From Coprobacillaceae bacterium (GTDB lineage Bacteria > Bacillota_I > Bacilli_A > Erysipelotrichales > Coprobacillaceae): DNA of 32,000 nucleotides. The notes beneath the pieces are model-generated. The model did no database searches. It worked only from the letters and a program-made list of their open reading frames with translations, and was not told where the DNA came from. Position numbers and translations under genes: made by a program. This document shows, piece after piece, positions 1,806-31,354 of the stretch. The stretch spans positions 810,001 through 842,000 of the forward strand of contig OY776328.1 in assembly GCA_963675515.1 (NCBI GenBank), written 5' to 3'. Numbering within the stretch: the first letter of the stretch is position 1; each line of letters begins with the position of its first letter.

Positions 1806-1816
1806 GGAGAACGATT

Positions 1817-3887: not shown

Positions 3888-3888
3888 G

Positions 3889-4530: not shown

Positions 4531-4531
4531 G

Positions 4532-5287
4532 ATGTTTGTCGACTTCCATATCCATACCCACCATTCGTTCGATTCGACCCAGGCTCCCGAGCCCTATATA
4601 ATCAAGGCGATCGAACTGGGCATGGACGAGATCTGTTTCACGGATCATCACGATTTCAATTATCCCGTCGACAATTTCGAACTGAACGTTATCGACTATT
4701 TCCTGGAACTCAAGGAGCTCCAGAAGAAATATCAGGACCAGATCAAAATCAAAATCGGGGTCGAGATCGGGCTTGATCTCGATTACGTCGATGAGATCAA
4801 TCAGTTCATCAAATCGGGTCCGTTCGAATTTGTGATCGGATCGATCCATGTCATCGACCATACCGAATTCTACTACGGGGAATTCTTCAAAGGTCTGACC
4901 AAGGATGAGGCCCATCACAAGTATTTCAGTGCGGTTCTCGACTGTGTCAGGGAATTCGACTGCTTCGATGTCTTGGGCCATCTTGACTACATTTCCAGGT
5001 ATGGCCCTTATGAAGACAAAAGCATCGATTACGACAAGCACAAGGTTGTGATTGAGCAGATTTTCACTGCCTTGATCCACAAGTTCAAGGGTATCGAGCT
5101 AAACACTTCGGGATACCGCACCTGCGGTCATCCTTTCCCTGATTTTGACCTGGCGCAGCGGTTCTACGATATGGGCGGACGGGTTATAAGCGTCGGTTCG
5201 GACTCCCATTCGACCGCTACTTTGGGTGTCCACAACCAGGAAGTCATCGACAGGCTCGAAAAGATAGGTTTTTCAATCCGGCATTAA
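4532..5287 (+). CDS. hisJ: histidinol-phosphatase, PHP family
   Basis: 251 aa. It opens with the PHP-domain motif FVDFHIHTHHSFDS and has later His/Asp ligands (GSIH, LGHLDY, SDSH). It is the last gene of the his run, starting 1 nt after the hisIE stop. Confidence 0.85.
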   Translation: MFVDFHIHTHHSFDSTQAPEPYIIKAIELGMDEICFTDHHDFNYPVDNFELNVIDYFLELKELQKKYQDQIKIKIGVEIGLDLDYVDEINQFIKSGPFEFVIGSIHVIDHTEFYYGEFFKGLTKDEAHHKYFSAVLDCVREFDCFDVLGHLDYISRYGPYEDKSIDYDKHKVVIEQIFTALIHKFKGIELNTSGYRTCGHPFPDFDLAQRFYDMGGRVISVGSDSHSTATLGVHNQEVIDRLEKIGFSIRH

Positions 5288-5328
5288 GCTGGATTTTTTC
5301 TTATCACTGGTTATCTTTAAATCAAATA

Positions 5329-5337
5329 TGTTATAAT
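5329..5337 (+). promoter_or_regulatory. extended -10 promoter element (TGtTATAAT) for the RepA_N-like/CDF unit
   Basis: TGTTATAAT lies at 5329-5337, followed by AAGGAGGA and the ATG at 5359. No clear -35 is visible. Confidence 0.45.
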
Positions 5338-5358
5338 GTACACAAGGAGGATGTCTAT

Positions 5359-5706
5359 ATGGAACTATTCAACAAGGAATCACTGGAATTGCTTATCAAA
5401 AATACTGACGACAACAGCTATTACCTGCCAAGAAGGCTTTTTGCGACGAATTATTTCGCGACAGTGCGACTGGAAACTAAGCTGGCGTATGCCGCAATCG
5501 CCGAAACGCTGATGCAAAGTCCGCATTACGACAAGAACGGCGCGGCCTATGTCAAAATCGACAATCCCGAAATCATCCACAATCTCAAAAAGATTGCGAA
5601 CAAGGATGTCGACAAGCAGAAAATCAACACTTACTTTGATGAATTGAAGGAAGCCGGCCTTATTGAAGTGGAAGGTATGAACATCAAGGTTCTCAACGTT
5701 GATTAA
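5359..5706 (+). CDS. small hypothetical protein, RepA_N-like (replication initiator A N-terminal / winged-helix-like) domain
   Basis: 115 aa with a strong Shine-Dalgarno. The pattern YYLPRRLF....LETKLAYAAI...........AYV.I....I...L......K....F.EL.E.GLIE resembles the Firmicute RepA_N family from memory. No plasmid or phage context is present. Confidence 0.5.
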   Translation: MELFNKESLELLIKNTDDNSYYLPRRLFATNYFATVRLETKLAYAAIAETLMQSPHYDKNGAAYVKIDNPEIIHNLKKIANKDVDKQKINTYFDELKEAGLIEVEGMNIKVLNVD

Positions 5707-6865
5707 CTTTCTTACCAAACGCTTCATCAGGGATCATGAAAATTTAGAAGATGAGAATGTCCGCGGTAATTACGGGATTTTTGCATCGGTGCTTTCCATC
5801 ATTCTAAATGTGATTCTGGTGGTTTTCAAAATCATGGTAGGCCTGGCTGTCAACTCGATTGCGGTCATTGCCGATGGCATCAACAATATGACCGATGTGG
5901 TTTCCAACTTGGCGACCCTGGTAGGCTTCAGGCTGGCTTTGCAGCTGCCGGATGAAAAACATCCTTATGGTCATGGCCGATTCGAGTATATCAGCGGCAT
6001 CATCATTTCTTTTTTTATCCTGATCGTGGCCTTCGTCACGGTCCGCGATTCGGTGATGAAAATAATCACCAATGAACCGGTTTTCTTCGACGCGGTCGGA
6101 GCGGTAGTCTTGATCGGGGCAATCTTCATCAAATTCTTCATGGCCTATTTCAACCGTGATATCGCCAAGAAGATCGATTCGACCTCGCTGAATGCAGCCG
6201 CCCAGGACAGCCTTAACGATGTGCTGGCAACGACTGCCACGCTTATAGCCTTGATTTTGGCGCGTTTCACGACGCTTCCGGTCGACGGTGTCATGGGGAC
6301 GATAGTCGGCGTGATTGTTTTCCGGTCGGGGATTGAAATATTCAAGGACACGGTCAATCCGTTGCTGGGGCTGGCTCCTTCGCCAGAACTCGTCAAGGAG
6401 ATTGTCCAGTATGTCAACACTGCTGCGGTTTCCAAGGGAAGCCACGATATCATGATCCATGATTACGGTCCATCCCGCAAGTTCATGACTTTGCATGTGG
6501 AGGTCGATGCCCGCGACGATATCATGGCCGTCCATGACGCGATTGACAATCTTGAGTACGACCTGGAGAGGAAGTTCAAGATCAAGACAGTCATCCATAT
6601 GGACCCAATCGACTACAACAACCCTGAACTCGAACCGGTAAGGCGCCAGGTGATGAGTGTCATCAAAAAATACGATGAATGTTACTCGATGCACGACTTC
6701 CGGATGGTTGCCGGTCCGACCCACACAAATCTGATTTTCGATCTGGTTGTCCCGTTTGAACAGGACAAGTCCAAAGATCAAATCAAGGAGGAGCTGACCG
6801 ACCTGATTGAGATTGCCAATCCCAAGTATCGGGTGAAAATGACAGTCGAGCATAAATACTACTGA
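5699..6865 (+). CDS. cation diffusion facilitator family transporter (Zn/Co/Cd/Fe efflux type)
   Basis: 388 aa. Six predicted TM segments are followed by a cytoplasmic domain. CDF motifs are present: AVIADGINNMTDV and HPYGHGRFEYISG. The TTG start overlaps the upstream stop by 8 nt. Confidence 0.88.
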   Translation: MINFLTKRFIRDHENLEDENVRGNYGIFASVLSIILNVILVVFKIMVGLAVNSIAVIADGINNMTDVVSNLATLVGFRLALQLPDEKHPYGHGRFEYISGIIISFFILIVAFVTVRDSVMKIITNEPVFFDAVGAVVLIGAIFIKFFMAYFNRDIAKKIDSTSLNAAAQDSLNDVLATTATLIALILARFTTLPVDGVMGTIVGVIVFRSGIEIFKDTVNPLLGLAPSPELVKEIVQYVNTAAVSKGSHDIMIHDYGPSRKFMTLHVEVDARDDIMAVHDAIDNLEYDLERKFKIKTVIHMDPIDYNNPELEPVRRQVMSVIKKYDECYSMHDFRMVAGPTHTNLIFDLVVPFEQDKSKDQIKEELTDLIEIANPKYRVKMTVEHKYY

Positions 6866-8597: not shown

Positions 8598-10025
<1,428 letters not shown>

Positions 10026-21062: not shown

Positions 21063-22118
21063 ATGTCCAAGAATAAATTAGAGGGAATCAGTTTCTTTGA
21101 ACGCTACTTGAGTGTCTGGGTGGCACTATGCATGGTTCTTGGGGTTGCCATCGGCCAGTTTGTGCCGGCCATTCCCGAATTCCTGACCCGGTTCGAGTTT
21201 GCCAATGTTTCAATCCCAATCGCCATTTTGATCTGGCTGATGATCTACCCGATGATGATGAAGGTTGACTTCGCAAGCGTCAAGAATGTCGGCAAGAACC
21301 CCCAGGGTCTCTATGTGACCTGGGCTGTCAACTGGCTGATCAAGCCGTTCACCATGTTTGGGATTGCCTACTTGTTTTTCAATATTGTCTTTGGCAGCCT
21401 TATTTCCAGTGAACTGGCCCAAAGCTATCTTGCCGGAGCGGTGCTGCTCGGGGCGGCGCCATGCACGGCGATGGTATTTGTCTGGTCACACCTGACCAGA
21501 GGCAACAGCGCCTATACGGTAGTGCAGGTTGCGACCAATGACCTGATCATCCTGGTGGCGTTCACTCCGATTGTGGCGTTTCTCCTTGGGGTAACAGGTA
21601 TCGCCATCCCTTGGGATACCCTGATCCTGTCGGTGGTCCTGTTCGTAGTCATTCCTTTGGCTGGCGGGATTTTCACCCGTAGCAATGTGATCAAAAACAA
21701 AGGGGAAGAATACTTCACAAAGAAATTCATTCCCAAGTTCAACAATGTGACTATCGCCGGATTGCTTGTCACCCTGGTCTTGATCTTCTCGTTCCAGGGC
21801 CATGTCATCCTGGAAAATCCGCTGCATATCGTCCTGATCGCAATTCCGCTGATCATCCAGACATTCCTGATTTTCGCACTAGGATACGGGGCAAGTTATC
21901 TGTTGAAACTGCCTCATTCGATATCCGCACCGGCTGGAATGATCGGGGCTTCGAACTTCTTCGAACTGGCCGTGGCCGTGGCGATCGCCCTGTTTGGGGC
22001 TGAGTCGCCGGTGGCTCTTGCGACAATTGTCGGGGTGCTCGTAGAAGTTCCGGTAATGTTGGTCCTGGTGAAATTTGCGAACCAGACCCGCAATTACTTC
22101 CCACAAGAAAAGGCTTAG
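21063..22118 (+). CDS. acr3: ACR3 family arsenite/antimonite efflux transporter
   Basis: The start is chosen at MSKNKLEGISFFERYL. The protein is ACR3-like throughout: FFERYLSVWV, IPIAILIWLMIYPMMMKVDF, WLIKPFTMF. The conserved Cys context is GAAPCTAMVFVW. Confidence 0.85.
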   Translation: MSKNKLEGISFFERYLSVWVALCMVLGVAIGQFVPAIPEFLTRFEFANVSIPIAILIWLMIYPMMMKVDFASVKNVGKNPQGLYVTWAVNWLIKPFTMFGIAYLFFNIVFGSLISSELAQSYLAGAVLLGAAPCTAMVFVWSHLTRGNSAYTVVQVATNDLIILVAFTPIVAFLLGVTGIAIPWDTLILSVVLFVVIPLAGGIFTRSNVIKNKGEEYFTKKFIPKFNNVTIAGLLVTLVLIFSFQGHVILENPLHIVLIAIPLIIQTFLIFALGYGASYLLKLPHSISAPAGMIGASNFFELAVAVAIALFGAESPVALATIVGVLVEVPVMLVLVKFANQTRNYFPQEKA

Positions 22119-22144
22119 ATGAAAAATTCATCCAAGCCTCTTTT
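22111..22144 (+). terminator. rho-independent terminator of acr3; also the 5'-exon hairpin used by the group IIC intron
   Basis: AGGCTTAGATGAA-aaa-TTCATCCAAGCCT (12 of 13 bp) followed by CTTTT. The stop codon TAG (22116-22118) lies in the left arm. The intron begins at the next base. Confidence 0.8.
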
Positions 22145-22666
22145 GTATGCCGGGCATGGCATATATCTAGGTGGTGAAAGTCCACTGTGGGGGTGATTTC
22201 GCAACTGCCAACCACTAGCCAATATCAAGGGTGTCCATCGCGAGGTGGAATCTGAAAGAAGATGGAGGCAAAACCCTGGTCCGAGGAACACGAATCACAT
22301 CAGGCATGTAATAGGGACGAGCGTGCAAAACAACGCAAAGTCATAAGAGGTTGCGGAATGATACTATTACATGTAAATGTGGCGGATATATGGGGTGAAA
22401 GATATATGACCTTATCCCGGGAGATCTTGCGAGGGAGCAATCCTAGTAACAACGAATCGCAAGAAGTCAGCAGACGTCGTAGTAGCGAGGAAGTGGCTGT
22501 AATGGCCATGGAGTGAAGGACTGAATAAATCTATCAGTTATTAAAATTAGGCTTGATTTCATCACGCAAAACCGCAAAGACAGTCGAACACACTAGTAAA
22601 GCCCGAAAGAAGAATGTAGGGAAAGTGAGCATGATGAATAGCGAAATCAATGGAGGTAATGGAAAC

Positions 22667-23950
22667 ATGAAAACTGATAACGAATTACTGGAACAAATGC
22701 TTAGCCATACCAACCTCAAACAAGCGTATGTACAAGTTAAACGAAACAAAGGTGCATGCGGAATTGATGGTATGGATGTCTACCAACTTAAGGGATATCT
22801 GGATGAACATCTGGATGAAATTAAGGCAAGCATAATGAACCGCACGTATAAACCACAACCGGTTAGGAGAGTGGAAATACCAAAAGCCGATGGCGGCACA
22901 AGAAATCTAGGAGTGCCTACAGTCATCGATAGATTCATTCAACAAGCTATCGCCCAGGTACTAACACCAATCTATGAACCAATCTTCAGTGACAACAACT
23001 ATGGTTTTAGACCCAATAGATGTTGTGAAATGGCAGTTATCAAGGCATTGGAATACATGAACGAAGGATTCCAATGGGTCGTGGATATTGACTTGGAGAA
23101 GTTTTTCGACAATATCAACCACGATAAACTTATTACATTGGTGATGAAGGATGTAAAGAGCGGTGAGATTGTATCGCTTATTAGAAAATTCCTGGTAAGT
23201 GGAATTATGATTGACGATGAATATAAGGAATCTATAGTCGGTACTATGCAAGGTGGTCCGTTAAGTCCACTACTATCCAATATATTTCTTAATGAATTGG
23301 ACAAGGAAATGGAAGCTAGGGGGTTACACTATACACGTTATGCCGATGACTGTATGATTTTCGTTGGGAGTAGCAAAGCAGCTGACAGAGTCATGGCATC
23401 AATAAGCAAATTCATCGAAACCAAGCTAGGCCTGAAAGTCAATATGACCAAAAGCAAAGTTGCAAAACCCAACGACATAAAGTATTTGGGATTTGGATTC
23501 TACTATGATACTTTCAACCAGCTTTGGAAAGCAAAACCGCATGCCAAATCAATAAAGACACTTAAAGAAAAATTGAAGGAATTGACTAATCGAAGTTGGT
23601 CAATTCCCTGGGATTATAGATGCTTAAAGATACGGCAACTAATAGTCGGGTGGATAAACTACTATAAAATAGGTAACTTCAAAGGTACGTGCGAAAACCT
23701 CGACGGGTGGATTAGATTTAGAATAAGAATGTATCTCTGGAAGAAATGGAAAACCATTAAGAACAGGAGAAAACAACTTAGAAAACTTGGAGCAAAACGA
23801 TGGCAATATGAATCATGGTCAAACTCTAGGAAATCATACGCCCGGTGTGCTAGCACATTTCTTAAGACAAGGGTCACAAACGAGTTACTCAAAAGAAAAG
23901 GCCTAGTATCACTACTAGACCAATATCAGTTAAAACATATTTCAGTATAG
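22667..23950 (+). CDS. group II intron reverse transcriptase/maturase (RT plus X domain, no En domain)
   Basis: The start is chosen at the ATG 10 nt after GGAGG (MKTDNELLEQML). In-frame ATGs at 22631 and 22634 are alternatives. RT blocks: NKGACGIDGM, IPKADGGTRNLGVPTV.DR..QQA, GFRP.R and YTRYADDCMIF. The maturase X motif (WINYY) is present. There is no HNH or Zn motif at the C-terminus. Confidence 0.9.
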   Translation: MKTDNELLEQMLSHTNLKQAYVQVKRNKGACGIDGMDVYQLKGYLDEHLDEIKASIMNRTYKPQPVRRVEIPKADGGTRNLGVPTVIDRFIQQAIAQVLTPIYEPIFSDNNYGFRPNRCCEMAVIKALEYMNEGFQWVVDIDLEKFFDNINHDKLITLVMKDVKSGEIVSLIRKFLVSGIMIDDEYKESIVGTMQGGPLSPLLSNIFLNELDKEMEARGLHYTRYADDCMIFVGSSKAADRVMASISKFIETKLGLKVNMTKSKVAKPNDIKYLGFGFYYDTFNQLWKAKPHAKSIKTLKEKLKELTNRSWSIPWDYRCLKIRQLIVGWINYYKIGNFKGTCENLDGWIRFRIRMYLWKKWKTIKNRRKQLRKLGAKRWQYESWSNSRKSYARCASTFLKTRVTNELLKRKGLVSLLDQYQLKHISV

Positions 23951-23956
23951 ATTTAA

Positions 23957-23988
23957 ACCGCCGTATGCCGGCCGGCTTGTACGGTGGT
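23957..23988 (+). ncRNA. group II intron domain V
   Basis: ACCGCCGUAU-GCC-ggcc-GGC-uu-GUACGGUGGU. This is a 10 bp lower helix, a 2 nt bulge and a 3 bp upper helix with a tetraloop. The CGC catalytic triad is characteristic of class C. Confidence 0.85.
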
Positions 23989-24015
23989 GTTATCCCGATA
24001 TCGGGATAACACCAC
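23984..24015. repeat. 32 bp perfect palindrome at the intron/RIT left junction
   Basis: GTGGTGTTATCCCGAT|ATCGGGATAACACCAC. The left 7 nt are the 3' strand of intron domain V. The rest is RIT sequence built from the TTATCCCGA motif. Confidence 0.95.
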
Positions 24016-24096
24016 TTATACCGACTTTTGGATTATCCCGACAATTATGTATTTTTGAGGGATAGTCCTTTTTTGGATTATTAAAAGTCGGGATAA
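24009..24096. repeat. RIT left terminal inverted repeat (88 bp)
   Basis: ACACCACTTATACCGACTTTTGGATTATCCCGACAA... matches the reverse complement of 30369-30456 with 4 mismatches. It contains TTATACCGAC (24016-24025), TTATCCCGAC (24033-24042) and the inverted GTCGGGATAA (24087-24096). Confidence 0.95.
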
Positions 24097-24097
24097 C

Positions 24098-25147
24098 TCA
24101 TATCAATCCATAAAGCCTTTTGATCAGTTCTTCATCATTTTCAAAATCCAGATTGTATTTATTAGAAATATTTATTAAGGGGCTAATTGCTTCTGTAGCC
24201 TGCTCAATTGCCTGTTTTTTCATTTCTAATGTTGGCTGCGCATAGAATTCCATTGTTGTAGAAACTTGCGCGTGTCCAAGCCATTCGGAAATAAGTGGTA
24301 GCGGCATTCCACCATGATATAAATGCATGGCTCTAGAATGGCGGAACATATGCGGATAAATATGAATAGGTACTTCTTCATCTACATCATGAGCGGATGC
24401 ACAATATTTATCAATAAATTTTTGAACAGCGTCTGGCGACAGTTGACTGATGATTTCCTTTCGTTTTGAACAAAAAACGAAGCTATCGTCTTTTGATTTT
24501 AAGTGAAATATCGATAGATAATTTTTCAAGTGGTTTACCGTTTTTTCCATAATTGGGACTAATCTTACTTTACTGCCCTTTCCAGTTAGTTTCACGTACG
24601 GGACTTCACTAAATAGGAATAGGTCGCCAATTTTGAGATCCAAAATTTCCTGAATTCTAGCTCCAGTGTCATACATTAGTATCATGAAAACCAAATCCCG
24701 TATTCCTTTTTTTGTTTTTGTGTTTGGCTGCCTAAGTAATGTTTCTAAAACATTTTCGGAGAAGTATTCAATCTGATTATTCTTGGACATCTTTTTCATT
24801 GGGACCGCAAGTAGTTCTTGGTAATATGCCATTAAAGAAATATTACGAGAGGCAACATATTTGTAAAACGAACGTATGGCTGCCAGTTTCTGATTTCTAG
24901 TACTGCAGGACCACCCGGAATATTGCTCACCGTCATCCAAAAAATTCTCAAGCAGCTTAACCGAGGTCATCTCGAAGCAAAATTCAGATAGTTTGATTTT
25001 ATTGGCGCTACATGCATGTTTTAGAAATTGATTCATAGTGATTTTATAGGATTTGATTGTGTTGAAGCTGTTTCCTTTTTGTTTTGGTAAGAAAGACTCA
25101 AAATAATCTCTAATCATTTTGAAGAAACATAATGAATTTTCAGTCAT
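24098..25147 (-). CDS. ritC: tyrosine recombinase, third gene of the RIT trio
   Basis: The start is chosen at MTENSLCFF, whose ATG overlaps the ritB stop. Catalytic residues: TGARIQE (Arg), HMFRHSRA (His-x-x-Arg) and LGHAQVSTTMEFY (His and Tyr). Confidence 0.85.
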   Translation of the reverse strand: MTENSLCFFKMIRDYFESFLPKQKGNSFNTIKSYKITMNQFLKHACSANKIKLSEFCFEMTSVKLLENFLDDGEQYSGWSCSTRNQKLAAIRSFYKYVASRNISLMAYYQELLAVPMKKMSKNNQIEYFSENVLETLLRQPNTKTKKGIRDLVFMILMYDTGARIQEILDLKIGDLFLFSEVPYVKLTGKGSKVRLVPIMEKTVNHLKNYLSIFHLKSKDDSFVFCSKRKEIISQLSPDAVQKFIDKYCASAHDVDEEVPIHIYPHMFRHSRAMHLYHGGMPLPLISEWLGHAQVSTTMEFYAQPTLEMKKQAIEQATEAISPLINISNKYNLDFENDEELIKRLYGLI

Positions 25148-26090
25148 ACTTAGACACCTCAGGAATGATTGAGGAAAACCTTTCCCAATCAACTTCAGAT
25201 GATTTAATTAATTCCTCTGGTAGTAAGTGAATATAATAAGCCGTGTCTTCGAAATTGGAATGACCCATATAGGCACTCATGTAGGGAAGCAATGAATATA
25301 AATCTTCACCATCGTTTAAGAGTTTCATCATGACAGTTGTCGCCCAGCGATGACGTAAATCGTATACTCTTACACGAGCTCTACCACCCTCGGGTTTTAT
25401 CTCATCCCAAATCTTCAAGAATTCCGTCCTTAACCATTTTGAATGATATGGAAGCCCGGTTGGAGATGGAAAAACATAATCAGTATTTGGAAATATTAAC
25501 TTCATTTCATCGATATACTCGCGCATCATATCTGTTACATCAGCTGCCATTGGAATTAGACGTTCCTTATGATTTTTGTTTTTTCTAATAAGTATAGTTC
25601 CGTTATCCAAGTCCAAATCTTTTTTCATTATTTCACGACCTTCGTTTGGCCGAAGACCACAAAAGTATATCAATCGATAGATTACAGATATGATTCTATT
25701 TTTAGCTGTAATCGGTTTGATATATTTTTTACTATCAGCCATTTCAAAAATGGTTTTAAGCTCCATGTTTGTAAATATATAGGGTACATATCTTGTGATT
25801 TTAGGTAAGAAATTCAAATCAAGTACAAAATTGGAAGCTCCGTTCGCAAAAAGGTAAAGTGTAAATTGTCTTATTGATGACATTCTAGATCGAAAACTGC
25901 ACGCCTGCTCAGTTTTCCTTTGCACACACCAAGGCATGATCATTTCTTGAGTAAGCATTGTTTCACTGGGAAAATTTTTCTTCAAGTATCTGGAAAAATC
26001 TTTAAGATACCAAGAAGTTGGTTGCAACGAATACCCTAAATCAATTCGATAATTAATCATTTCGGGGATATATTCATATATGAATTTCAT
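25140..26090 (-). CDS. ritB: tyrosine recombinase, second gene of the RIT trio
   Basis: 316 aa. Catalytic residues: CGLRPNEG (Arg), YDLRHRWAT (His-x-x-Arg) and MGHSNFEDTAYYIH (His and Tyr). Confidence 0.88.
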   Translation of the reverse strand: MKFIYEYIPEMINYRIDLGYSLQPTSWYLKDFSRYLKKNFPSETMLTQEMIMPWCVQRKTEQACSFRSRMSSIRQFTLYLFANGASNFVLDLNFLPKITRYVPYIFTNMELKTIFEMADSKKYIKPITAKNRIISVIYRLIYFCGLRPNEGREIMKKDLDLDNGTILIRKNKNHKERLIPMAADVTDMMREYIDEMKLIFPNTDYVFPSPTGLPYHSKWLRTEFLKIWDEIKPEGGRARVRVYDLRHRWATTVMMKLLNDGEDLYSLLPYMSAYMGHSNFEDTAYYIHLLPEELIKSSEVDWERFSSIIPEVSKYD

Positions 26091-26183
26091 AATCTACCAT
26101 CAAGTGTTTCCATCGATAACGCACACTTTCTCAAACCCTCAACATCAAGTGAAATATATTGCTTAGTAGGTATGACTGATTGG
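26087..26183 (-). pseudogene. probable orphaned 3' end of ritA, left behind by the IS insertion
   Basis: The minus-strand frame is open from the IS3 boundary (..VIPTKQYISLDVEGLRKCALSMETLDGRL*). It ends in a TGA that overlaps the ritB ATG (ATGA), which is the coupling expected for trio genes. Its phase relative to ritA cannot be established. Confidence 0.4.
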
Positions 26184-27340
26184 TGACCTGGATAGGTTAC
26201 AATAAATTAGACAAGATTATAAGGACATGATAAAATCTTGTTAAATTTGTGGAGGATATTCAAAATGACAAAACGCAGACCTAAACGTACTTACACCGAT
26301 GAATTCAGAATCAAAATGGTTCAACTTTACAACAATGGGAAACCCAGAGCGGAAATAATCCGTGAATACGATTTGACAGCTTCAGCGTTCAATAAATGGG
26401 TTAAACGCTTCAATGACACGGGTTCGTTTACTGAAGCCGACAATCGATCAGATCATGACAAGGCGCTTATCAAGCTCCAAAAAGAAAACGAACGACTGAA
26501 GATGGAAAATGATATTTTAAAGCAAGCGGCGCTGATAATGGGACGAAAAGACAAGTAATCTTTGCAAATCAACACAAATACTCTATCGGCGCTATGTGCA
26601 AAGTCTTGAAAATCTCTCGGGCAACTCTCTACTACAAACCCAAAGGGCGTAAAGTGGATTCGAAGCTTGAAGATGAAGTAATAAAATCATTCAAAAACAG
26701 CAAGAAGAATTATGGAACACGCAAGATAAAAGATGACCTGGATGATTTGAACATGGTTGCCAGCAGAAGAAAAATTGCTCAAATCATGGACAAATACGGC
26801 TTGATCAGTAAATACACCATCAAGCAAAGACCAAAGCATTATGGCAAAGTAAATAATGACGATATTGAAAATCTGATCAATAGAAAATTCCAAGCAGAGC
26901 GGCCAATGCAATATTTAACCAGCGACTTGACCTACATCAAGGTGGCTGGAAAATGGAACTATATTTGTCTGATAATAGATTTATACAATCGTGAAATCGT
27001 TGGTAAATCTAGTGGTCAAAACAAAGACGCCAACTTGGTTATTAAGGCATTAAACGATATAAAAAGTGATTTAAGTGATGTCGAAGTATTTCATTCAGAC
27101 CGAGGCTCAGAGTTCAAAAACGAGATGATTGATAGGATATTGGCATTGAATGGAATCAAGAGATCGTTGAGTGCAAAAGGTAAACCGATTGATAACGCAG
27201 TATCAGAATCAATGTACAAAATACTCAAAACAGAATTCGCATTCAATCGACAATTCCGCAGTATCGACGAATTGTCATTGGAACTGTATGATTATGTCAA
27301 CTGGTTCAACAACAAAAGGAAGCATGGGAGCCTTAATTAC
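26184..27340 (+). mobile_element. IS3-family insertion sequence, 3' end truncated
   Basis: It has an orfA/orfB organisation with orfB in the -1 frame. The left end is tentatively at TGACCTGG (26184), with 26173 as an alternative. No right inverted repeat is present. orfB runs straight into the inverted repeat of the next IS. Confidence 0.7.
26265..26558 (+). CDS. IS3 family transposase OrfA (HTH plus leucine zipper)
   Basis: The ATG lies after GGAGGA. It opens MTKRRPKRTYTDEFRIKMVQLY..G....IIREYDL..S.F.KWVKR and continues to a coiled-coil (LQKENERLKMENDILKQAA). Confidence 0.88.
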   Translation: MTKRRPKRTYTDEFRIKMVQLYNNGKPRAEIIREYDLTASAFNKWVKRFNDTGSFTEADNRSDHDKALIKLQKENERLKMENDILKQAALIMGRKDK

Positions 27341-27367
27341 AACCTAAAATCCCGCGTAAATTTATAA
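26513..27367 (+). CDS. IS3 family transposase OrfB (DDE integrase core), C-terminus replaced
   Basis: The -1 frame is open from 26513 and reads ..VIFANQHKYSIGAMCKVLKISRATLYY. A candidate slippery site, A-AAA-G, lies at 26546-26550. The DDE residues are present in LTSDLTY, FHSDRGSEF and DNAVSESMYKILKTE. The last 9 codons (NLKSRVNL*) are encoded by the IS1634-like inverted repeat. Confidence 0.8.
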   Translation, partial: YFKASGADNGTKRQVIFANQHKYSIGAMCKVLKISRATLYYKPKGRKVDSKLEDEVIKSFKNSKKNYGTRKIKDDLDDLNMVASRRKIAQIMDKYGLISKYTIKQRPKHYGKVNNDDIENLINRKFQAERPMQYLTSDLTYIKVAGKWNYICLIIDLYNREIVGKSSGQNKDANLVIKALNDIKSDLSDVEVFHSDRGSEFKNEMIDRILALNGIKRSLSAKGKPIDNAVSESMYKILKTEFAFNRQFRSIDELSLELYDYVNWFNNKRKHGSLNYNLKSRVNL

Positions 27368-29132
27368 CAACACCTAAGGTAGCGGGATGTCGAATGCTTC
27401 ATAGATGATTCGCTGTTCCTTTGTTACTGGAGCAATGATGCTTTGGCCGTTGATATCTTGGGTACGCAACTTTGCAAGGATTTGGATAAGCTCCTTCATC
27501 GTGTGTTTCTTGTACAGTCCCTTGTCATTCATCACTTTGTTGATTTCTGACATGATCACCGATGCAATGAATCCGACAAATAATTTCCCTTGCATCGCAT
27601 TATCGCTATGTACTCTTAACCTTCCAAGGTCGATATTATTTTTTAGACGTAGGAAACCTTTCTCCACAACATCCTTATCCCGATATATCGTGATTGCTTT
27701 TTGAGCATCGCCGATGTCATTACTGATTAGCACAACCCAACCTGCGGTTTTAAGACTACGTTCAACAACGTCTGTCCTGATGTTGACAGTGTATCCACTG
27801 TCCTGTTTTTCAGATTTGCGGATAATTAGATACTTCACGCATTCGGCGTCATGTAGCCATTTTTCAGGGTTTTCAGTAACCTTTTGCCGGAGCAACGCTA
27901 TTGACGTATACAGGTCTTCACGGATTCCCGCAGCCTTTTTAGCGCTGTAGTAAATGTGGGTGTACAATTTGTGTTTGGAATCCCAAGAACGTTCCTTGGT
28001 TACTGCCCTCATTGAATTTCCGTTGATGACAATCGTGTTCTCCACACAATCAATGTCTTTCCGTTCGCTTTCAACCTGGTTCTTGGCAAAGGCCGACGAG
28101 AATGGCACTGAGATTAGGAATTTTACCGGTCCGTCACCCTTTTCATCAAGCATTTTATTAACGTTTGAAGCGCTGAAAAAACCTTTATCCATAACGACGG
28201 TGATGGCCCGGCTGCCAGTTGTGGCTTCGAATTGATCCAGTGTGTTTTTGAGAGTGCGGACATCTTTTTGACTGCCGCTGAATATGGTTTGAAACAAAGG
28301 TAGCCTTTTGGACTCTCCCATGAGCATGCAAATATTGATTTGTGGCAGATTATCATGATCACGATTATAGCCCCACTCCACGTCGTCAATCAACTCCGAA
28401 TAAGATGACGTTGAAGTGATATCCAAAGCCAGGTATTCATCATCTTTGTTTGCAGCATACCAATTTCGGTAGAAATCACTCCGTTGATTTGCGGTAAGAG
28501 AAATCAAAAGTTCGCTTATGCGCTGTGATGTTAATGAACCGACAGGATAGGATTGTGTCCCTGAAATCCATTCATTACAGTACATCATCGGGTCGCTAGT
28601 GGAAATCATGTAACAAGCAAGCATGAATATCTCTTGCCAGTGGTTTGGTATAGATCGTTCCAGGGCATCGATCAAGCCTGATTTTTCGGCAATGGTACGA
28701 TACAAATAGAAAAGGCCATATGAGCGTATAGAAGACTTCCGGATATCATCGATTGAAAACACTTTCTCGGTAGATGGGATCTCTATTTCGTGCCCAGCTA
28801 AACGAAGCTCTTCCAAATACTCCGGTTTATAGATCTTTTGTCCGGTCTTGGGATCAATTTTTCCAATGGAACGACGCTTTTGTCTTACCTGCCCGTCTTT
28901 CGTGCGGAATCCCTCAGCCAGATAAATATATTGATACCGGCCAACCTTCTGAATAACCTCATAACTCATCCAAACCACCTCTCTGTTGTTATAATAATTA
29001 TAACAACATCTAAGATAAAAAGCAAGCTATTTAGGGTGTTGATCAATAGAAAAACGGCTATATATCAAGGTTTCATGGATTTGAAGTATTAAAATATAGT
29101 TGTTGTTATAAAAATTTGCGGGAGCTTAGGTT
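27341..29132 (-). mobile_element. IS1634-family insertion sequence
   Basis: Imperfect inverted repeats of about 36 bp are present. The left copy, AACCTAAaaTCCCGCgtAAATTTATAACAACAcCTA (27341-27376), matches the reverse complement of 29098-29132. They enclose one IS1634-type transposase gene. Confidence 0.75.
27374..28969 (-). CDS. IS1634 family transposase
   Basis: The start is chosen at MSYEVIQKVGRYQYIYLAEGFR..DG.VRQKR.SIGK, the typical N-terminus, 5 nt after GAGGTGG. It is about 531 aa and DDE-type. Confidence 0.82.
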   Translation of the reverse strand: MSYEVIQKVGRYQYIYLAEGFRTKDGQVRQKRRSIGKIDPKTGQKIYKPEYLEELRLAGHEIEIPSTEKVFSIDDIRKSSIRSYGLFYLYRTIAEKSGLIDALERSIPNHWQEIFMLACYMISTSDPMMYCNEWISGTQSYPVGSLTSQRISELLISLTANQRSDFYRNWYAANKDDEYLALDITSTSSYSELIDDVEWGYNRDHDNLPQINICMLMGESKRLPLFQTIFSGSQKDVRTLKNTLDQFEATTGSRAITVVMDKGFFSASNVNKMLDEKGDGPVKFLISVPFSSAFAKNQVESERKDIDCVENTIVINGNSMRAVTKERSWDSKHKLYTHIYYSAKKAAGIREDLYTSIALLRQKVTENPEKWLHDAECVKYLIIRKSEKQDSGYTVNIRTDVVERSLKTAGWVVLISNDIGDAQKAITIYRDKDVVEKGFLRLKNNIDLGRLRVHSDNAMQGKLFVGFIASVIMSEINKVMNDKGLYKKHTMKELIQILAKLRTQDINGQSIIAPVTKEQRIIYEAFDIPLP

Positions 29133-30327
29133 ACAAAACACCCGTACAATACAGGTTGTCCTTATAAAAATTGTCTAAAAAAGTGTTGACTTTCCAACCC
29201 AAAAGCTGGGCAATCATTGTAACCGGAACACCGTTGATAATCAATTGAGTCCCAAACATCCGCCTAATAGAGTGGAAAGTGTTCCCGGTTTTAAGGGATG
29301 GTTCAATTCCAGCCTTTAATAGATACCTTCTAAAAAAAGAAGCGATAGAACAGCCGTCTTTAAGCCCCGTAAAAGGAGCTATGGATCTTATAAAAATACT
29401 ATTATCATCTGTTTTGGGTCTTCCATTTAGAATGTAGTCCGCAATTGCATTACAGACACTCTCAGTTAATGGCACTGATATGGGACTATTTGTTTTCCCC
29501 TGAACTATATTTAATTTGCGTTTTTTCCAATCAATATCTTCAAGCTGAATCCGTACTATATCTCCAGCTCTTAGCCCTGTCATTGCACCCAATATTATAA
29601 TCGCATAATTTCTTTTTCCGGTAGGTGTCTCCCTATCAATTGAATTTAAAATTCCTACAAGATCAATCATATCTATCGGCGGATATAATGCCCTGTCTCG
29701 TATTTTACCAAAGGAAACGATGGAGCTTATATCAAAATCAATCTTTTTATTTCTGTACAAATTAACTAAATATTTTTTCAAACAAGTGAGTATTCTATCC
29801 ATGGATTTTGGGTTATCCTTAGAGATGATTTTAATAAATTCCACTATATCGCTAGTACTTATTAATTTCGGTTGCAAAATATCATGATTGTTTAGAAAAT
29901 TTGAAAATAAATATAGGATTCGCTCTTCAAATTGAAGGGTCCTAATAGATACATCTCTATTTTTCAAATATTCTTTTATTGTCATTTTGAACCCTGATGA
30001 TATAGGGATTTCATCCTTAAATGTGAAAACTTTCCACTTGAAGGAACCGAAATCATTAAGTTCGGTGATCATTAAGACGCCACGCACTCTTTTATTATAG
30101 GTGGTCCTACTAATAATTTTGTTTTGAAGTTGCGAAAGATAGAGCTTTAGCAGTGAATCCATAATTTCTTGACTATAGTTGATTTGGTTTAAGTCAGAAT
30201 ATCTTTTCAAAATGGGGTTAAAGTAGCTGGATTCGTAGGCCTGAATGGTAAGTTCATTATAGCCTTGAGACTTCAGGTTATTTAAAGCAAGCTGAACTAA
30301 TTCGTCGATACTATTCAAATTTTTCAT
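29131..30327 (-). CDS. ritA: tyrosine recombinase, first gene of the RIT trio; its stop codon is created at the IS junction
   Basis: 398 aa. Catalytic residues: TGLRAGD (Arg), FHSIRRMF (His-x-x-Arg) and LLGWKVNTFLDNFY (Trp in place of the second His, then Tyr). In the TAA stop, the T comes from RIT DNA and the AA from the first two bases of the IS1634-like inverted repeat. Confidence 0.85.
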   Translation of the reverse strand: MKNLNSIDELVQLALNNLKSQGYNELTIQAYESSYFNPILKRYSDLNQINYSQEIMDSLLKLYLSQLQNKIISRTTYNKRVRGVLMITELNDFGSFKWKVFTFKDEIPISSGFKMTIKEYLKNRDVSIRTLQFEERILYLFSNFLNNHDILQPKLISTSDIVEFIKIISKDNPKSMDRILTCLKKYLVNLYRNKKIDFDISSIVSFGKIRDRALYPPIDMIDLVGILNSIDRETPTGKRNYAIIILGAMTGLRAGDIVRIQLEDIDWKKRKLNIVQGKTNSPISVPLTESVCNAIADYILNGRPKTDDNSIFIRSIAPFTGLKDGCSIASFFRRYLLKAGIEPSLKTGNTFHSIRRMFGTQLIINGVPVTMIAQLLGWKVNTFLDNFYKDNLYCTGVL

Positions 30328-30348
30328 TTCAAACTACCTCCTAACTAC

Positions 30349-30378
30349 ATTATAGACTGAAAATAAAATTATCCCGAC
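30349..30378 (-). promoter_or_regulatory. possible ritA promoter overlapping the innermost recombinase-binding motif
   Basis: On the minus strand, TATAAT (30354-30349) lies upstream of AGGAGG (30342-30337). The -35 position (30377-30372, TCGGGA) lies inside the motif GTCGGGATAA of the right inverted repeat. Confidence 0.4.
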
Positions 30379-30456
30379 TTTTAATAATACAAAAAGAGAC
30401 TATCCCTCAAAAATACATATTTGTCGGGATAATCCAAAAGTCGGTATAAGTGGTGT
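30369..30456. repeat. RIT right terminal inverted repeat (88 bp)
   Basis: It is the reverse complement of 24009-24096, identical at 84 of 88 positions. It ends ..GTCGGTATAAGTGGTGT. Confidence 0.95.
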
Positions 30457-30504
30457 GAGAGGTCGAAAATAAATAGGGAAACTATTTATTTTCTCCTACT
30501 CGAT
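30457..30504 (+). ncRNA. displaced group IIC intron domain VI and 3' splice site
   Basis: Removing 23991-30456 joins domain V (..GUACGGUGGU), GU and this segment. The fold is as follows:
- 30457-30459 pair with 30499-30501.
- A30498 is bulged.
- 30460-30462 pair with 30495-30497.
- A small internal loop follows.
- 30465-30476 pair with 30482-30493, closing a GGAAA loop.
A30498 is the 7th nucleotide from a ...GAU end at 30504. That matches the branch-point geometry and the terminal A-Y rule. Confidence 0.65.
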
Positions 30505-30511
30505 TTTATTA

Positions 30512-31354
30512 CTAGCGCGCTTCGATCAGTCCGAAATGCACGAAAGCGTTGTACAGTCCGTCATCATCAACGCCATCGGTAACATAATCGGCCATGGCCT
30601 TGATCCCGTCGCCGCCGCTGCCCATGGCGATTCCCACTTTGCAGTGTTCAAGCATGTCGATGTCGATATTGGCATCACCGAAGGCGAAGGTGTCTTCGAT
30701 CGATGCCCCCAGGTAGTCAAGCAGGTGGTTGATCGCATTGGCTTTGGTGATCCCTTTGACACCGAGGTCACCGAACAGGGCGATTTCTCCGGCCCCACCC
30801 CAGGTTCCCGGTTTTAGATCAGGGAATTCCTCGATTGAATCGAGATGGTCCTGATAGCTTTCCAGGATGAAACTCACCTTGTTGAGGTCGTCGCGGTAAA
30901 GCTCGCCACCATAGATCATTTCCGGATAGATGTCGTCGACCGTTATGGTTGAAGCATTTTCCTTGCCTTTGCGCCGTGAATATTCCTGCATCACCGGAGT
31001 TGCCCGTTCCTTGAAGTTTTTCGAAGCGAAAAGCCCGTTGTTGCTTTCCAGGTAGAACTCCAGCTTGCGCGAATCAAGCCAGTCTACTATATGTTTGCCT
31101 TGTTCCCTGGTGATCAGCTGGTGCATGACAACTGTGTCGTTGTCTTCGACATAGCTGCCGTTGCCCCCGATCATCCCGTCCAGTCCGATATCCCACAGGT
31201 AGGGATAAACCTCGGCTTTCGACCGGCCGGTGCAGATATACACCCGATGGCCTTTCTTTCTTGCTTCCTTGATTGCATAGTCCGCCGATTCAGGCAATTT
31301 GTTTTCATAGTTGACCAATGTCCCATCGACATCGATAAAGATAATTTTGTTCAT
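30512..31354 (-). CDS. Cof-type HAD-IIB family hydrolase
   Basis: 280 aa. HAD motifs: IFIDVDGTL, CTGRS and FGDANID. Confidence 0.85.
   Translation of the reverse strand: MNKIIFIDVDGTLVNYENKLPESADYAIKEARKKGHRVYICTGRSKAEVYPYLWDIGLDGMIGGNGSYVEDNDTVVMHQLITREQGKHIVDWLDSRKLEFYLESNNGLFASKNFKERATPVMQEYSRRKGKENASTITVDDIYPEMIYGGELYRDDLNKVSFILESYQDHLDSIEEFPDLKPGTWGGAGEIALFGDLGVKGITKANAINHLLDYLGASIEDTFAFGDANIDIDMLEHCKVGIAMGSGGDGIKAMADYVTDGVDDDGLYNAFVHFGLIEAR

What the first reader, a model, noticed from the sequence alone, without database searches (positions are those of the whole stretch)
30457..30504. Intron domain VI and the 3' splice site lie 6.5 kb away from domains I-V
I first read the AT-rich hairpin at 30466-30492 as a weak terminator. 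In context it fits better as intron domain VI:
- It directly continues the domain V 3' strand once the RIT is removed.
- It has a basal helix with a single bulged adenosine (A30498) on the 3' strand.
- That adenosine is 7 nt from a ..GAU end at 30504. This is the usual branch-point distance and the usual terminal A-pyrimidine.

The combined intron would be about 1.89 kb (1846 + 48 nt), a normal class C size.

As it stands, the ribozyme core and the branch-site helix are separated by 6.47 kb of antisense-oriented RIT and IS DNA. The intron is therefore either dead or would need to fold across a very large J5/6 insertion. The intron lies downstream of a terminator and outside any ORF, so loss of splicing would carry no cost. 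This may be why the arrangement persists.
Basis: inference. Interest (0 to 1): 0.7.

Follow-up and report, generated by a model that had tools for sequence, protein, structure and literature searches.

The report
Group II intron split by recombinase element
The 48 bases at 30457-30504 are the missing last domain and 3' end of a self-splicing intron that starts 8.4 kb upstream; a three-recombinase mobile element (RIT) cut it off, and relatives of that element sit at this same intron position in many other bacteria.

Summary
Confirmed. Window 30457-30504 is domain VI (branch A30498) plus the 3' end of the class C group II intron that starts at 22145.

- **Uninterrupted homologues.** In 76 homologous introns, domain V runs straight into this sequence (...ACGGTGGTGT|GAGAGG...CCTACTCGAT).
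- **Independent model.** A covariance model built only from those homologues hits the window twice, at 23956-23990 and 30450-30504.
- **Empty site.** A related genome has the SBF-terminator-HAD site with neither intron nor DVI.

The separating 6,466 bp is a RIT element (ritA/B/C). It carries a nested IS3-family element, which itself carries an IS1634-family element. It is flanked by GTGGTGT, which occurs once in intact introns.

The insertion is not a one-off. All eight RitC lineages sampled (95-47% identity) abut domain V or VI at this same junction. They occur in both orientations, in CGC-type and AGC-type introns, and the 7-mer tracks the host intron. This implies Xer-like site-specific integration into the DV-DVI linker through a dif-like site (TCGGTATAA-GTGGTG-TTATCCCGA). 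I found no published RIT target.

This intron copy is probably unable to splice or move. The IS removed RitA's catalytic tyrosine, so the RIT cannot excise itself. The splicing and recombination steps are inferred, not shown.

The parts
22111..22144 (+). Terminator-like hairpin (22111-22139) plus CTTTT. It forms the 5' exon end and the class C intron's insertion site.
   Evidence: Read directly. The same hairpin is followed by an unbroken T-run in the empty site of L128. L001-L009 introns each follow a different hairpin plus T-run. The consensus scan did not flag it because only four T remain before the intron.
22145..23990 (+). Group II intron domains I-V, including the IEP ORF (22631-23950, or from TTG 22553). 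DV spans about 23957-23988 with a CGC triad at 23959-23961.
   Evidence: Rfam D1D4-3 scores 127 bits and D1D4-1 45 bits. Pfam finds RVT_1 and GIIM. TIGR04416 scores 403 bits against a cut-off of 300. Model R1 matches the DV half at 23956-23990.
23984..23990 (+). GTGGTGT copy 1. It covers the last bases of the DV 3' strand plus J5/6 and is the inferred crossover (central) region.
   Evidence: Present once in 76 uninterrupted homologues. It occurs three times at this locus: 23984, 24009 (minus strand) and 30450.
23991..30456 (-). Inserted RIT element with nested IS, 6,466 bp. It can equally be written as 23984-30449.
   Evidence: Absent from homologous introns. It is 95% identical in DNA to the uninterrupted RIT of L085 in two blocks, 30451-29197 and 26188-23990.
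23984..24015 (.). Perfect 32-bp palindrome GTGGTGTTATCCCGAT|ATCGGGATAACACCAC. It consists of a half-site next to DV plus a complete inverted core site (24001-24024).
   Evidence: the repeat finder pair I16, 16+16 nt, 100% complementary. The same arrangement lies on the DV side in L085, L086, L087, L088, L097, L103 and L114.
24009..24096 (.). Left terminal inverted repeat of the RIT, carrying TTATCCCGA-type 9-mers.
   Evidence: Pair I1, 88 nt, 95% complementary to 30369-30456. The 9-mers lie at 24016, 24033 and 24088.
24098..25147 (-). ritC (349 aa by comparison with P0001; the mechanical ORF extends to 25192).
   Evidence: Pfam Phage_integrase plus SAM-like N-terminal domain. It is 95% identical to P0001 and 34% identical to the RitC of the Cupriavidus necator pHG1 RIT.
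25140..26090 (-). ritB (316 aa), overlapping ritC by 8 bp.
   Evidence: Pfam Phage_integrase. Same length as in L085.
26087..26188 (-). Detached 3' end of ritA: the last 33 codons, including the His and the catalytic Tyr.
   Evidence: The blastn block boundary with L085 falls at 8960/26188. L085 RitA ends ...LGHHSIIPTKQYISLD..., whereas the window ORF diverges after ...LLG.
26189..29196 (+). IS3-family element (orfA 26238-26558, orfB 26594-27367) inserted in ritA. It is itself interrupted by an IS1634-family element at 27341-29132 (transposase 27374-28978, minus strand).
   Evidence: NCBIfam transpos_IS3 scores 230 bits and transpos_IS1634 248 bits. IS1634 inverted repeats are pair I2, 27341-76 / 29097-132. 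Boundaries come from the L085 alignment and from reading the ends.
29131..30327 (-). ritA, truncated and fused to IS sequence (398-aa ORF, against 409 aa when intact).
   Evidence: Pfam Phage_integrase. Compared with L085 RitA.
30369..30456 (.). Right terminal inverted repeat of the RIT, ending TCGGTATAA-GTGGTGT.
   Evidence: Pair I1. 9-mers at 30369, 30424 and 30441.
30457..30504 (+). Intron domain VI and 3' end. Basal helix 30457-62 / 30495-501, distal hairpin 30465-30493, branch-point A30498, terminal GAU.
   Evidence: Sequence. Fold. Homologues and covariation. Model R1 aligns the DVI half within its 30432-30504 match, 38.4 bits.
30505..30514 (+). 3' exon start (TTTATTAC), running into the stop codon of the convergent HAD gene (30512-31354, minus strand).
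   Evidence: ORF list and Pfam Hydrolase_3. Synteny with L128 resumes at 30507.

Best explanation
Window 22145-30504 is one class C group II intron. It inserted after the bidirectional terminator between the SBF and HAD genes and was later split in the 3-nt DV-DVI linker (J5/6) by a RIT element.

**How the RIT most likely got there.** This is inferred from anatomy.
- The free RIT carries a dif-like core site, TCGGTATAA-GTGGTG-TTATCCCGA: 9-bp inverted arms around a 6-bp centre.
- In a circular junction this site would be present twice, as a perfect palindrome.
- The Xer-like RitABC recombinases exchange strands at GTGGTG(T) with the identical bases at the end of DV.
- The product is DV-core-palindrome-...RIT...-arm-core-DVI. 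This is what is seen here and in relatives, in either orientation.

The central 7-mer behaves like a coupling sequence, because it changes with the host intron.

**Consequences (inferred).**
- DV and DVI are now 6.5 kb apart. This copy very probably cannot branch or choose its 3' splice site, so it cannot make the lariat RNP needed for mobility.
- The host pays nothing, because the intron lies outside any ORF.
- Conservative excision would restore the intron exactly. Here an IS3-family insertion removed RitA's catalytic tyrosine, so excision would need a second RIT copy acting in trans.
For: **Identity of the piece.**
- 76 uninterrupted homologues carry the fused sequence.
- Covariation supports the DV+DVI structure.
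- The independent covariance model hits both halves.
- The fused sequence folds as predicted.
- The empty site in L128 aligns up to 22144 and from 30507.

**RIT identity.**
- Three overlapping tyrosine-recombinase genes lie between 88-nt inverted repeats.
- RitC matches the Cupriavidus pHG1 RIT.
- The element is 95% identical in DNA to an intact RIT in L085.

**Recurrent targeting.** L081, L085-L088, L094, L097, L098, L103, L104/L106, L114, L116 and L117 together give 24 arm-core junctions.
- 13 read arm-core-palindrome-core'-DV'.
- 9 read arm-core followed by a complete DVI.
- 2 read arm-core followed by a DVI start truncated after GAGG or GAGA.
- Host introns include CGC-type and AGC-type DVs.

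**Core tracks the host.** A 95%-identical RIT carries GTTTGAT at all three positions in a different intron (L085). In L088 the DVI-side core is the one that would pair with the DV 5' strand, and the DV-side core is foreign.

**RitA truncation:**

**Literature.** RIT movement and target specificity are listed as untested (PMC10214605). A palindrome next to ritC was noted without explanation (PMC3414803).
Against: - No transcript, splicing or recombination data exist. 'Dead intron', the circular intermediate and the crossover point are all inferences.
- The target has no recognisable copy of the 9-bp arms. Only the 6-7-bp centre is shared, so how the site is recognised is unexplained.
- Two junctions (L094 RitC side, L098 RitC side) continue into non-DVI sequence after GAGG or GAGA.
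- L116 lacks the palindrome.
It is a sample of 8 lineages, not a full census.
- The mini-construct fold shows that the RIT repeats could bring DV and DVI together in RNA, so residual splicing is not excluded.
Confidence: 0.85

Rival explanations
1. The hairpin at 30466-30492 is simply the HAD gene's own terminator or other native intergenic sequence, not intron sequence.
For: It lies about 20 nt beyond the HAD stop codon (30512-14) and is an AT-rich hairpin.
Against: - The same 48-nt unit, joined to DV, ends 76 introns at unrelated sites.
- It is missing from the intron-less SBF/HAD site of L128, where the shared bidirectional terminator sits instead.
- The stem has no G-C pairs apart from its closing pair.
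Confidence: 0.01
2. The RIT landed in the intron by chance. This is an ordinary one-off nesting of mobile elements with no site preference.
For: - Other elements also hit this region. An IS sits inside DV in L071, and ISs sit inside this RIT.
- None of 77 homologous introns carries a RIT.
Against: - All eight RitC lineages sampled, down to 47% identity, abut DV or DVI at the identical junction, in several intron classes and both orientations.
- The RIT ends carry the same 7-mer as the target.
Confidence: 0.05
3. A single ancient RIT insertion into one intron has since been spread by the intron itself, so the association is inheritance and not repeated targeting.
For: - The DVI next to the divergent RIT of L081 closely resembles the window's DVI.
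- The inverted repeats could let the composite RNA fold.
Against: - A 95%-identical RIT sits in an unrelated AGC-type intron with a different core (L085).
- One RIT with identical RitC (P0114) has at least three different intron flanks (L086-L088).
- Both orientations occur.
- The RIT is 95% identical between the window and L085, a contig from the sample that also yielded L128. Host DNA in the window/L128 comparison is about 80% identical.
Confidence: 0.07
4. The split intron still works. In the transcript, the RIT's 88-nt terminal repeats pair and loop out the insertion like an extra domain, so DV and DVI dock and splicing or even retromobility continues.
For: - A mini-construct (both ends joined by GAAA) folds with native DV, native DVI and a continuous inverted-repeat stem between them, at -183 kcal/mol.
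- The IEP ORF and D1-D4 are intact.
Against: - J5/6 is normally about 3 nt. Here it would hold an 18-nt hairpin and an 88-bp stem closing 6.3 kb.
- Transcription would have to cross 6.5 kb, mostly antisense to the rit genes, past terminator-like sites.
- No data support it, and I know of no natural group II intron split at J5/6.
Confidence: 0.1

Closest known systems
Bacterial class C (IIC) group II introns, e.g. Oceanobacillus iheyensis O.i.I1 and Bacillus halodurans B.h.I1 (from general knowledge of the family)
   Same: - Inserted just after an intrinsic-terminator hairpin.
- CGC in place of AGC in DV.
- IEP with RT and maturase domains and no matched nuclease domain.
- About 1.9 kb once fused.
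- DVI with a bulged A seven nt from the 3' end.
   Different: This copy is interrupted in J5/6 by 6.5 kb of DNA transposon, so DVI and the 3' splice site are detached.
RIT (recombinase in trio) elements, archetype in Cupriavidus metallidurans CH34 and C. necator pHG1 (Van Houdt 2009/2012; Ricker 2013)
   Same: - ritA-ritB-ritC order, with sizes of about 409, 316 and 349 aa.
- 4-8-bp gene overlaps.
- Terminal inverted repeats, with a palindrome beside ritC (PMC3414803).
- 34% RitC identity to the pHG1 RIT.
   Different: - This Firmicute clade has a definable target, the DV-DVI linker of group II introns, and a reconstructable dif-like core site.
- Target specificity of RITs is listed as untested (PMC10214605).
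- The pHG1 RIT has no intron gene beside it.
Tyrosine-recombinase transposons with variable coupling sequences (Tn916/CTnDOT, Tn554, SE/GInt elements)
   Same: The 6-7 bp at the crossover are not fixed for the element. They change with the previous and present site, as described for the 6-bp footprint of SE and Tn554 in PMC10214605.
   Different: - Three Xer-like recombinases and no Xis or TnpC.
- Long inverted repeats.
- The target is a conserved position in another mobile element.
- Mechanism untested.
Mobile elements that use a conserved structured site of another mobile element as landing pad (IS1111-attC elements, attC-targeting class C introns, CTX phage at dif through a folded hairpin site) (from general knowledge)
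   Same: - The target is a short conserved sequence flanked by hairpin-forming repeats, in a multicopy and harmless location.
- The RIT junction is itself a perfect palindrome that could fold.
   Different: The host is a retroelement ribozyme. No evidence here for single-stranded substrates.
Twintrons and fragmented (trans-spliced) group II introns (from general knowledge)
   Same: A group II intron interrupted by another mobile element, or broken into separately located pieces.
   Different: - The invader is a DNA element.
- The break is in J5/6, not in domain IV, I or III.
- Nothing indicates the pieces reassemble.

Membership tests
Group II intron, domain V-VI unit | 34-nt DV hairpin with a 2-nt bulge, a short J5/6, and a DVI helix with a bulged adenosine 7-8 nt from the 3' end | tested here: met
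   The fold of the fused sequence matches. The structure is 99.7% paired with 10 compensatory pairs across 31 homologues. The bulge column is A in at least 90% of them.
Group II intron, domain V-VI unit | Match to the curated Rfam DV-DVI model (RF00029) | tested here: not met
   No RF00029 match even at E <= 10 over 21900-31000. The halves are split, which lowers the score of any whole DV-DVI model. A purpose-built model finds both halves.
Group II intron (whole) | Domains I-IV ribozyme plus an RT/maturase ORF in domain IV | tested here: met
   RF02001 scores 127 bits and RF01998 45 bits. RVT_1 and GIIM are present. TIGR04416 scores 403 bits against a cut-off of 300.
Class C (IIC) group II introns | Insertion immediately downstream of an intrinsic-terminator-like stem-loop, outside ORFs | tested here: met
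   The window has a hairpin at 22111-22139 plus a T-run. The empty site in L128 agrees. Nine homologous copies (L001-L009) each follow a different hairpin.
Class C (IIC) group II introns | DV catalytic triad CGC instead of AGC | tested here: met
   C23959-G23960-C23961. These positions are invariant in the alignment. That this feature defines the class is from my own knowledge.
Class C (IIC) group II introns | IEP lacks an endonuclease domain | tested here: met
   Only RVT_1 and GIIM are found in the 465-aa ORF. Absence of a Pfam hit is weak evidence.
Class C (IIC) group II introns | Phylogenetic placement of the IEP and ribozyme within the class C clade | not tested
   No reference set of classified introns was available.
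RIT elements | Three adjacent tyrosine-recombinase genes in the order ritA-ritB-ritC with 4-8-bp overlaps | tested here: met
   L085 (95% identical) has 409, 316 and 349 aa with overlaps of 4 and 8 bp. In the window the same genes are present, with ritA broken by an IS.
RIT elements | Terminal inverted repeats, with a palindrome at one end | tested here: met
   88-nt inverted repeats, 95% complementary, and a 32-bp perfect palindrome.
RIT elements | Homology to archetypal RitA/B/C families | tested here: met
   RitC is 34% identical to the pHG1 RIT, E = 2e-51. RitA and RitB were not compared separately.
RIT elements | Demonstrated mobility as a unit | not testable with these tools
   Indirect evidence only. 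The same RIT occurs in different introns and loci, and an empty site exists.

The most novel reading that the evidence does not exclude
This RIT clade is a dedicated parasite of group II introns. It integrates into the DV-DVI linker, and a sister clade integrates into the DNA encoding the RT 'PQGG/VISP' motif. Its terminal repeats are arranged so that, in RNA, the whole element loops out as an extra stem between DV and DVI. RIT-bearing introns could then still splice and retrohome. A DNA transposon would be carried on a retroelement, or RIT integration and excision would act as a reversible on/off switch for intron mobility.
Probability: 0.1. Interest if true: 0.85.

Novelty: new variant of a known kind. 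Interest (0 to 1): 0.66.

Why it matters
**For this locus.** The result settles the annotation. The orphan hairpin next to the HAD gene is the tail of an intron whose head lies 8.4 kb away. The region is a four-deep nest: terminator, then class C intron, then RIT, then IS3-family element, then IS1634-family element.

**More broadly.** RIT elements are widespread, but their mechanism and target choice are listed as untested. Intact intron homologues here act as natural empty sites. They give, at base resolution, the insertion point, a 6-7-bp exchanged centre and a dif-like core site for one RIT clade. They also show that the clade repeatedly uses a conserved position of a retroelement ribozyme as its landing pad. 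Together these provide concrete substrates for the first RIT recombination assays. They also add a new kind of interaction between two classes of mobile elements.

Tried and rejected
- **Rfam.** Neither gathering nor E <= 10 thresholds gave a DV-DVI (RF00029) match. I replaced it with a custom model.
- **Exact-protein look-ups.** The window's IEP, HAD and RitC were not on record. For HAD the query included the stop codon, and the RitC query used the long TTG start (it also included the stop codon). The HAD protein was later found as P0121.
- **Megablast against plasmids.** The intron gave only short D1 matches and no close homologue.
- **Viral-contig scan.** The 17-mer junction ATAAGTGGTGTGAGAGG gave three hits, none with a covariance-model match. 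I treated them as chance.
- **Metagenome scan with RitC.** It returned a single locus, L081, which turned out to be informative.
- **Arm similarity.** I looked for similarity between the RIT 9-bp arms and the sequences flanking the target core. There is none (1-2 of 9 positions), so arm-based target recognition is rejected. Recognition remains unexplained.
- **Single-strand hairpin integration.** A simple model predicts that the DV-side core equals the complement of the inner core. L097, L098 and L103 violate this, so it is not adopted as the main model.
- **Literature.** Searches linking RIT and group II introns found nothing. Ricker et al. 2013 could not be read, so prior mention there cannot be excluded.

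Full report
**1. The observation.**

Window 30457-30504 reads GAGAGGTCGAAAATAAATAGGGAAACTATTTATTTTCTCCTACTCGAT. Its features are these:
- An AT-rich hairpin lies at 30466-30492, closed by G30465-C30493.
- A basal helix pairs 30457-30462 with 30495-30501.
- A30498 is the only bulge, seven bases from the ..GAU end at 30504.

Upstream, 22145-23990 is a group II intron lacking its last domain. Rfam finds D1D4-3 (127 bits) and D1D4-1 (45 bits). The ORF at 22553/22631-23950 has RVT_1 and GIIM domains and passes TIGR04416 at 403 bits against a cut-off of 300. DV is readable at about 23957-23988. Rfam's DV-DVI model gives no match even at E <= 10.

**2. Is it domain VI of that intron?**

Four independent tests say yes.
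- **Homologues.** I fetched 80 loci encoding relatives of the IEP. The closest are 8 copies in a Coprobacillaceae MAG at 83% amino-acid identity. In 76 of the 80, DV runs directly into ...ACGGTGGTGT GAGAGG[T/A]CG-stem-loop-C[T/C]CCTACTCGAT, followed by unrelated exon sequence. GTGGTGT is present once.
- **Covariation.** On 31 distinct homologues the DV+DVI structure is 99.7% paired and 10 pairs show compensatory changes. With slid partners, pairing is 41-52%.
- **Covariance model.** Model R1, built from those homologues only, finds two matches in the whole window. One is 23956-23999 (35.5 bits, DV half aligned) and the other 30432-30504 (38.4 bits, DVI half aligned).
- **Fold.** The fused 84-nt sequence folds as DV plus DVI with the bulged A, at -39 kcal/mol and z = -6.25.

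**3. The empty site.**

A related genome (L128) has a HAD protein 94% identical and host DNA about 79-84% identical. Its SBF and HAD genes are convergent and separated only by the terminator hairpin and a T-run. Its alignment with the window stops at 22144 and resumes at 30507. So 22145-30504 is a single 8,360-bp insertion, and no DVI-like sequence belongs to the native intergenic region.

**4. Class C assignment.**
- The intron follows a terminator hairpin at 22111-22139 plus CTTTT.
- Nine homologous copies each follow a different hairpin and T-run.
- The DV triad is CGC at 23959-23961.
- The IEP shows no nuclease domain.

I did not do a phylogenetic placement.

**5. What separates the pieces.**

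23991-30456 (6,466 bp) is a RIT element.
- Three tyrosine-recombinase genes lie on the minus strand: ritA 29131-30327, ritB 25140-26090 and ritC 24098-25147.
- They sit between 88-nt inverted repeats that are 95% complementary (24009-24096 and 30369-30456).
- The element is 95% identical in DNA to an uninterrupted RIT in L085, in two blocks that break at 26188/29197.
- The 3,008 bp between those blocks is an IS3-family element. It carries an IS1634-family element (27341-29132) in the end of its orfB.
- The IS cuts ritA 33 codons before its stop. The window protein ends ...LLG|WKVNTF..., whereas the intact one reads ...LG|HHSIIPTKQYISLD.... The conserved His and the catalytic Tyr are therefore detached.

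**6. Anatomy of the junctions.**

On the DV side the sequence reads ...GTACG-[GTGGTGT]-TATCCCGAT|ATCGGGATA-[ACACCAC]-TTATACCGAC.... On the DVI side it reads ...GTCGGTATAA-[GTGGTGT]-GAGAGG....
- GTGGTGT occurs at 23984, 24009 (minus strand) and 30450.
- 23984-24015 is a perfect 32-bp palindrome.
- TTATCCCGA-type 9-mers cluster in both ends.
- Joining the right end to the left end reconstructs TCGGTATAA-GTGGTG-TTATCCCGA. This has 9-bp inverted arms around a 6-bp centre, the layout of Xer/dif-type sites. It is followed at once by its own inverse.

From this I infer a free form whose junction is a palindrome with two identical inverted core sites. Crossover at either one, with the GTGGTG(T) at the end of DV, gives the observed product in either orientation. 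The palindrome always ends up on the DV side.

**7. The insertion is recurrent.**

RitC has 543 homologues at E < 1e-30. I examined every lineage for which I could obtain flanks:
- L081 (57% identity)
- P0001/L085 (95%)
- P0114/L086-L088 (48%)
- P0074/L094-L103 (49%)
- P0107/L104-L106 (47%)
- P0099/L114, from Peribacillus cavernae (48%)
- P0053/L116 (53%)
- P0030/L117 (51%)

A scripted scan of outermost arm-core junctions found 24. Thirteen read arm-core-palindrome-core'-DV'. Nine read arm-core followed by a complete DVI. Two read arm-core followed by GAGG or GAGA and then other sequence.

Both orientations occur. Host introns include CGC-type (class C) and AGC-type DVs.

The 7-mer follows the host. 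It is GTGGTGT, GTGCTGT or GTTCTGT in the DVs of this type. It is GTTTGAT or GTTTGAC in AAGCCG-type DVs. This holds even for the 95%-identical RIT of L085, which carries GTTTGAT at all three positions.

In L088 the DVI-side 7-mer (GTTCTGT) is the one that would pair with the DV 5' strand (GAGCCG), while the DV-side 7-mer (GTGGTGT) is foreign. That is the behaviour of an exchanged, heterology-tolerant central region, comparable to the coupling sequences of Tn916 or the 6-bp footprint of Tn554 and SE elements (PMC10214605).

L086 and L097 have DVs on both sides, and L094 has DVI-type junctions on both sides. This is as expected if RIT copies recombine with each other.

As a contrast, none of 77 homologous introns carries a RIT. 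RITs on Cupriavidus pHG1 and on a Bacteroides plasmid have no intron gene beside them.

**8. How it most likely works, and what is inferred.**

Shown:
- the identity of the pieces
- the exact insertion point
- the duplicated centre
- the recurrence of the insertion
- the broken ritA

Inferred:
- integration by site-specific recombination from a circular form
- loss of splicing and mobility of this intron copy
- exact restoration on excision
- dependence on a second RIT copy for excision here

The target shares only the 6-7-bp centre with the RIT site. The flanking 9 bp match at 1-2 positions, so target recognition is unexplained. The two hairpin-forming repeats (DV and DVI) around the centre are a candidate signal.

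A mini-RNA made of both RIT ends folds with native DV and DVI and a continuous repeat stem between them. Residual splicing therefore cannot be excluded, and I rate it at about 10%.

**9. Comparison with what is known.**

The papers I could read describe RITs as three overlapping recombinase genes with inverted repeats and a palindrome near ritC. They report no convincing binding sites and no experimental mobility (PMC3414803; PMC5737581). Target specificity is listed as 'not tested' (PMC10214605).

Searches for any link between RITs and group II introns found nothing. Ricker et al. 2013 was not readable, so earlier mention there is possible.

**10. Verdict.**

The split intron itself is an ordinary consequence of one mobile element landing in another. 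The added result is that this RIT clade specifically and repeatedly occupies the DV-DVI linker of group II introns, with a definable core site. This appears to be undescribed, and it makes RIT recombination directly testable.

Noticed in passing
L094 7405-10619 (minus strand); L125 (Bacillus sp. S3 plasmid NZ_CP039728.1) 2785-5999: A second, different RIT clade (repeat motif TTATGCAAAGTAAG; RitC 36.5% identical to the window's in L125) sits inside the IEP gene of group II introns. It lies exactly at the codons for the conserved RT motif ...TPQGG|GGVISP(V/L)LAN.... Two RIT clades therefore use two of the most conserved DNA stretches of group II introns.
   Followed up: partly
L071 4187-5785 (Waltera acetigignens NZ_JAOQJO010000015.1): A homologous intron has a roughly 1.6-kb IS inside domain V. 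The IS has a 499-aa transposase and terminal repeats CAGACTGTCTAACG / CGTTAGACAGTCTG, and ACGC appears to be duplicated. This is another mobile element splitting the same ribozyme core.
   Followed up: partly
window 26087-30327: The IS3-family insertion separates the last 33 codons of ritA, including the catalytic Tyr, from the rest of the gene. The IS3-family element is in turn interrupted in the end of its orfB by an IS1634-family element. That makes four levels of nesting at one terminator.
   Followed up: yes
window 30457-31354, minus strand: In the empty site, the HAD and SBF genes share one bidirectional terminator. After the insertions, HAD transcription (minus strand) has no nearby strong terminator. 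It would read through the DVI complement into the sense strand of ritA, possibly driving RIT expression.
   Followed up: no
L094 about 6120-6420 (also L095, L096, L099-L102): On its RitC side this RIT reads arm-GTTCTGT-GAGG and then runs straight into the 5' end of another group II intron (GTTGCGCC...; Rfam D1D4-6 match at 6180-6415). That intron's RT gene is split by the second RIT clade. How this junction arose is unexplained. It could be a truncated DVI or an intron within an intron.
   Followed up: no
L086 1104-4722; L097 about 2600-6220: These RIT copies are flanked by domain V of two different introns, head to head, with the palindrome at both ends. L094 is the reciprocal form, with DVI-type junctions on both sides. 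This suggests recombination between RIT copies and hence chromosomal inversions.
   Followed up: partly
L116 about 1700-5700: This RIT (RitC 53% identical) lacks the palindromic extension. It reads DV-GTTCTG-TTATCCCGAC...GTCGGGATAA-GTTCTG-C-DVI, a plain inverted-repeat element flanked by a 6-bp direct repeat. The palindrome is therefore not universal in the clade.
   Followed up: no
L085 and L128 (both ENA sample ERZ21869602): One metagenome sample holds both the empty SBF/HAD site and a RIT 95% identical to the window's, located in a different intron at a different locus. Host DNA in the window/L128 comparison is only about 80% identical. The RIT appears to have moved, or been transferred, more recently than the hosts diverged.
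   Followed up: partly
window 30512-31354: The HAD protein is found at 100% identity on a 2.88-Mb contig (P0121). Named relatives at about 79-83% identity are Beduini, Thomasclavelia, Stoquefichus and Longibaculum. The window therefore comes from a Coprobacillaceae/Erysipelotrichales-type Firmicute.
   Followed up: partly
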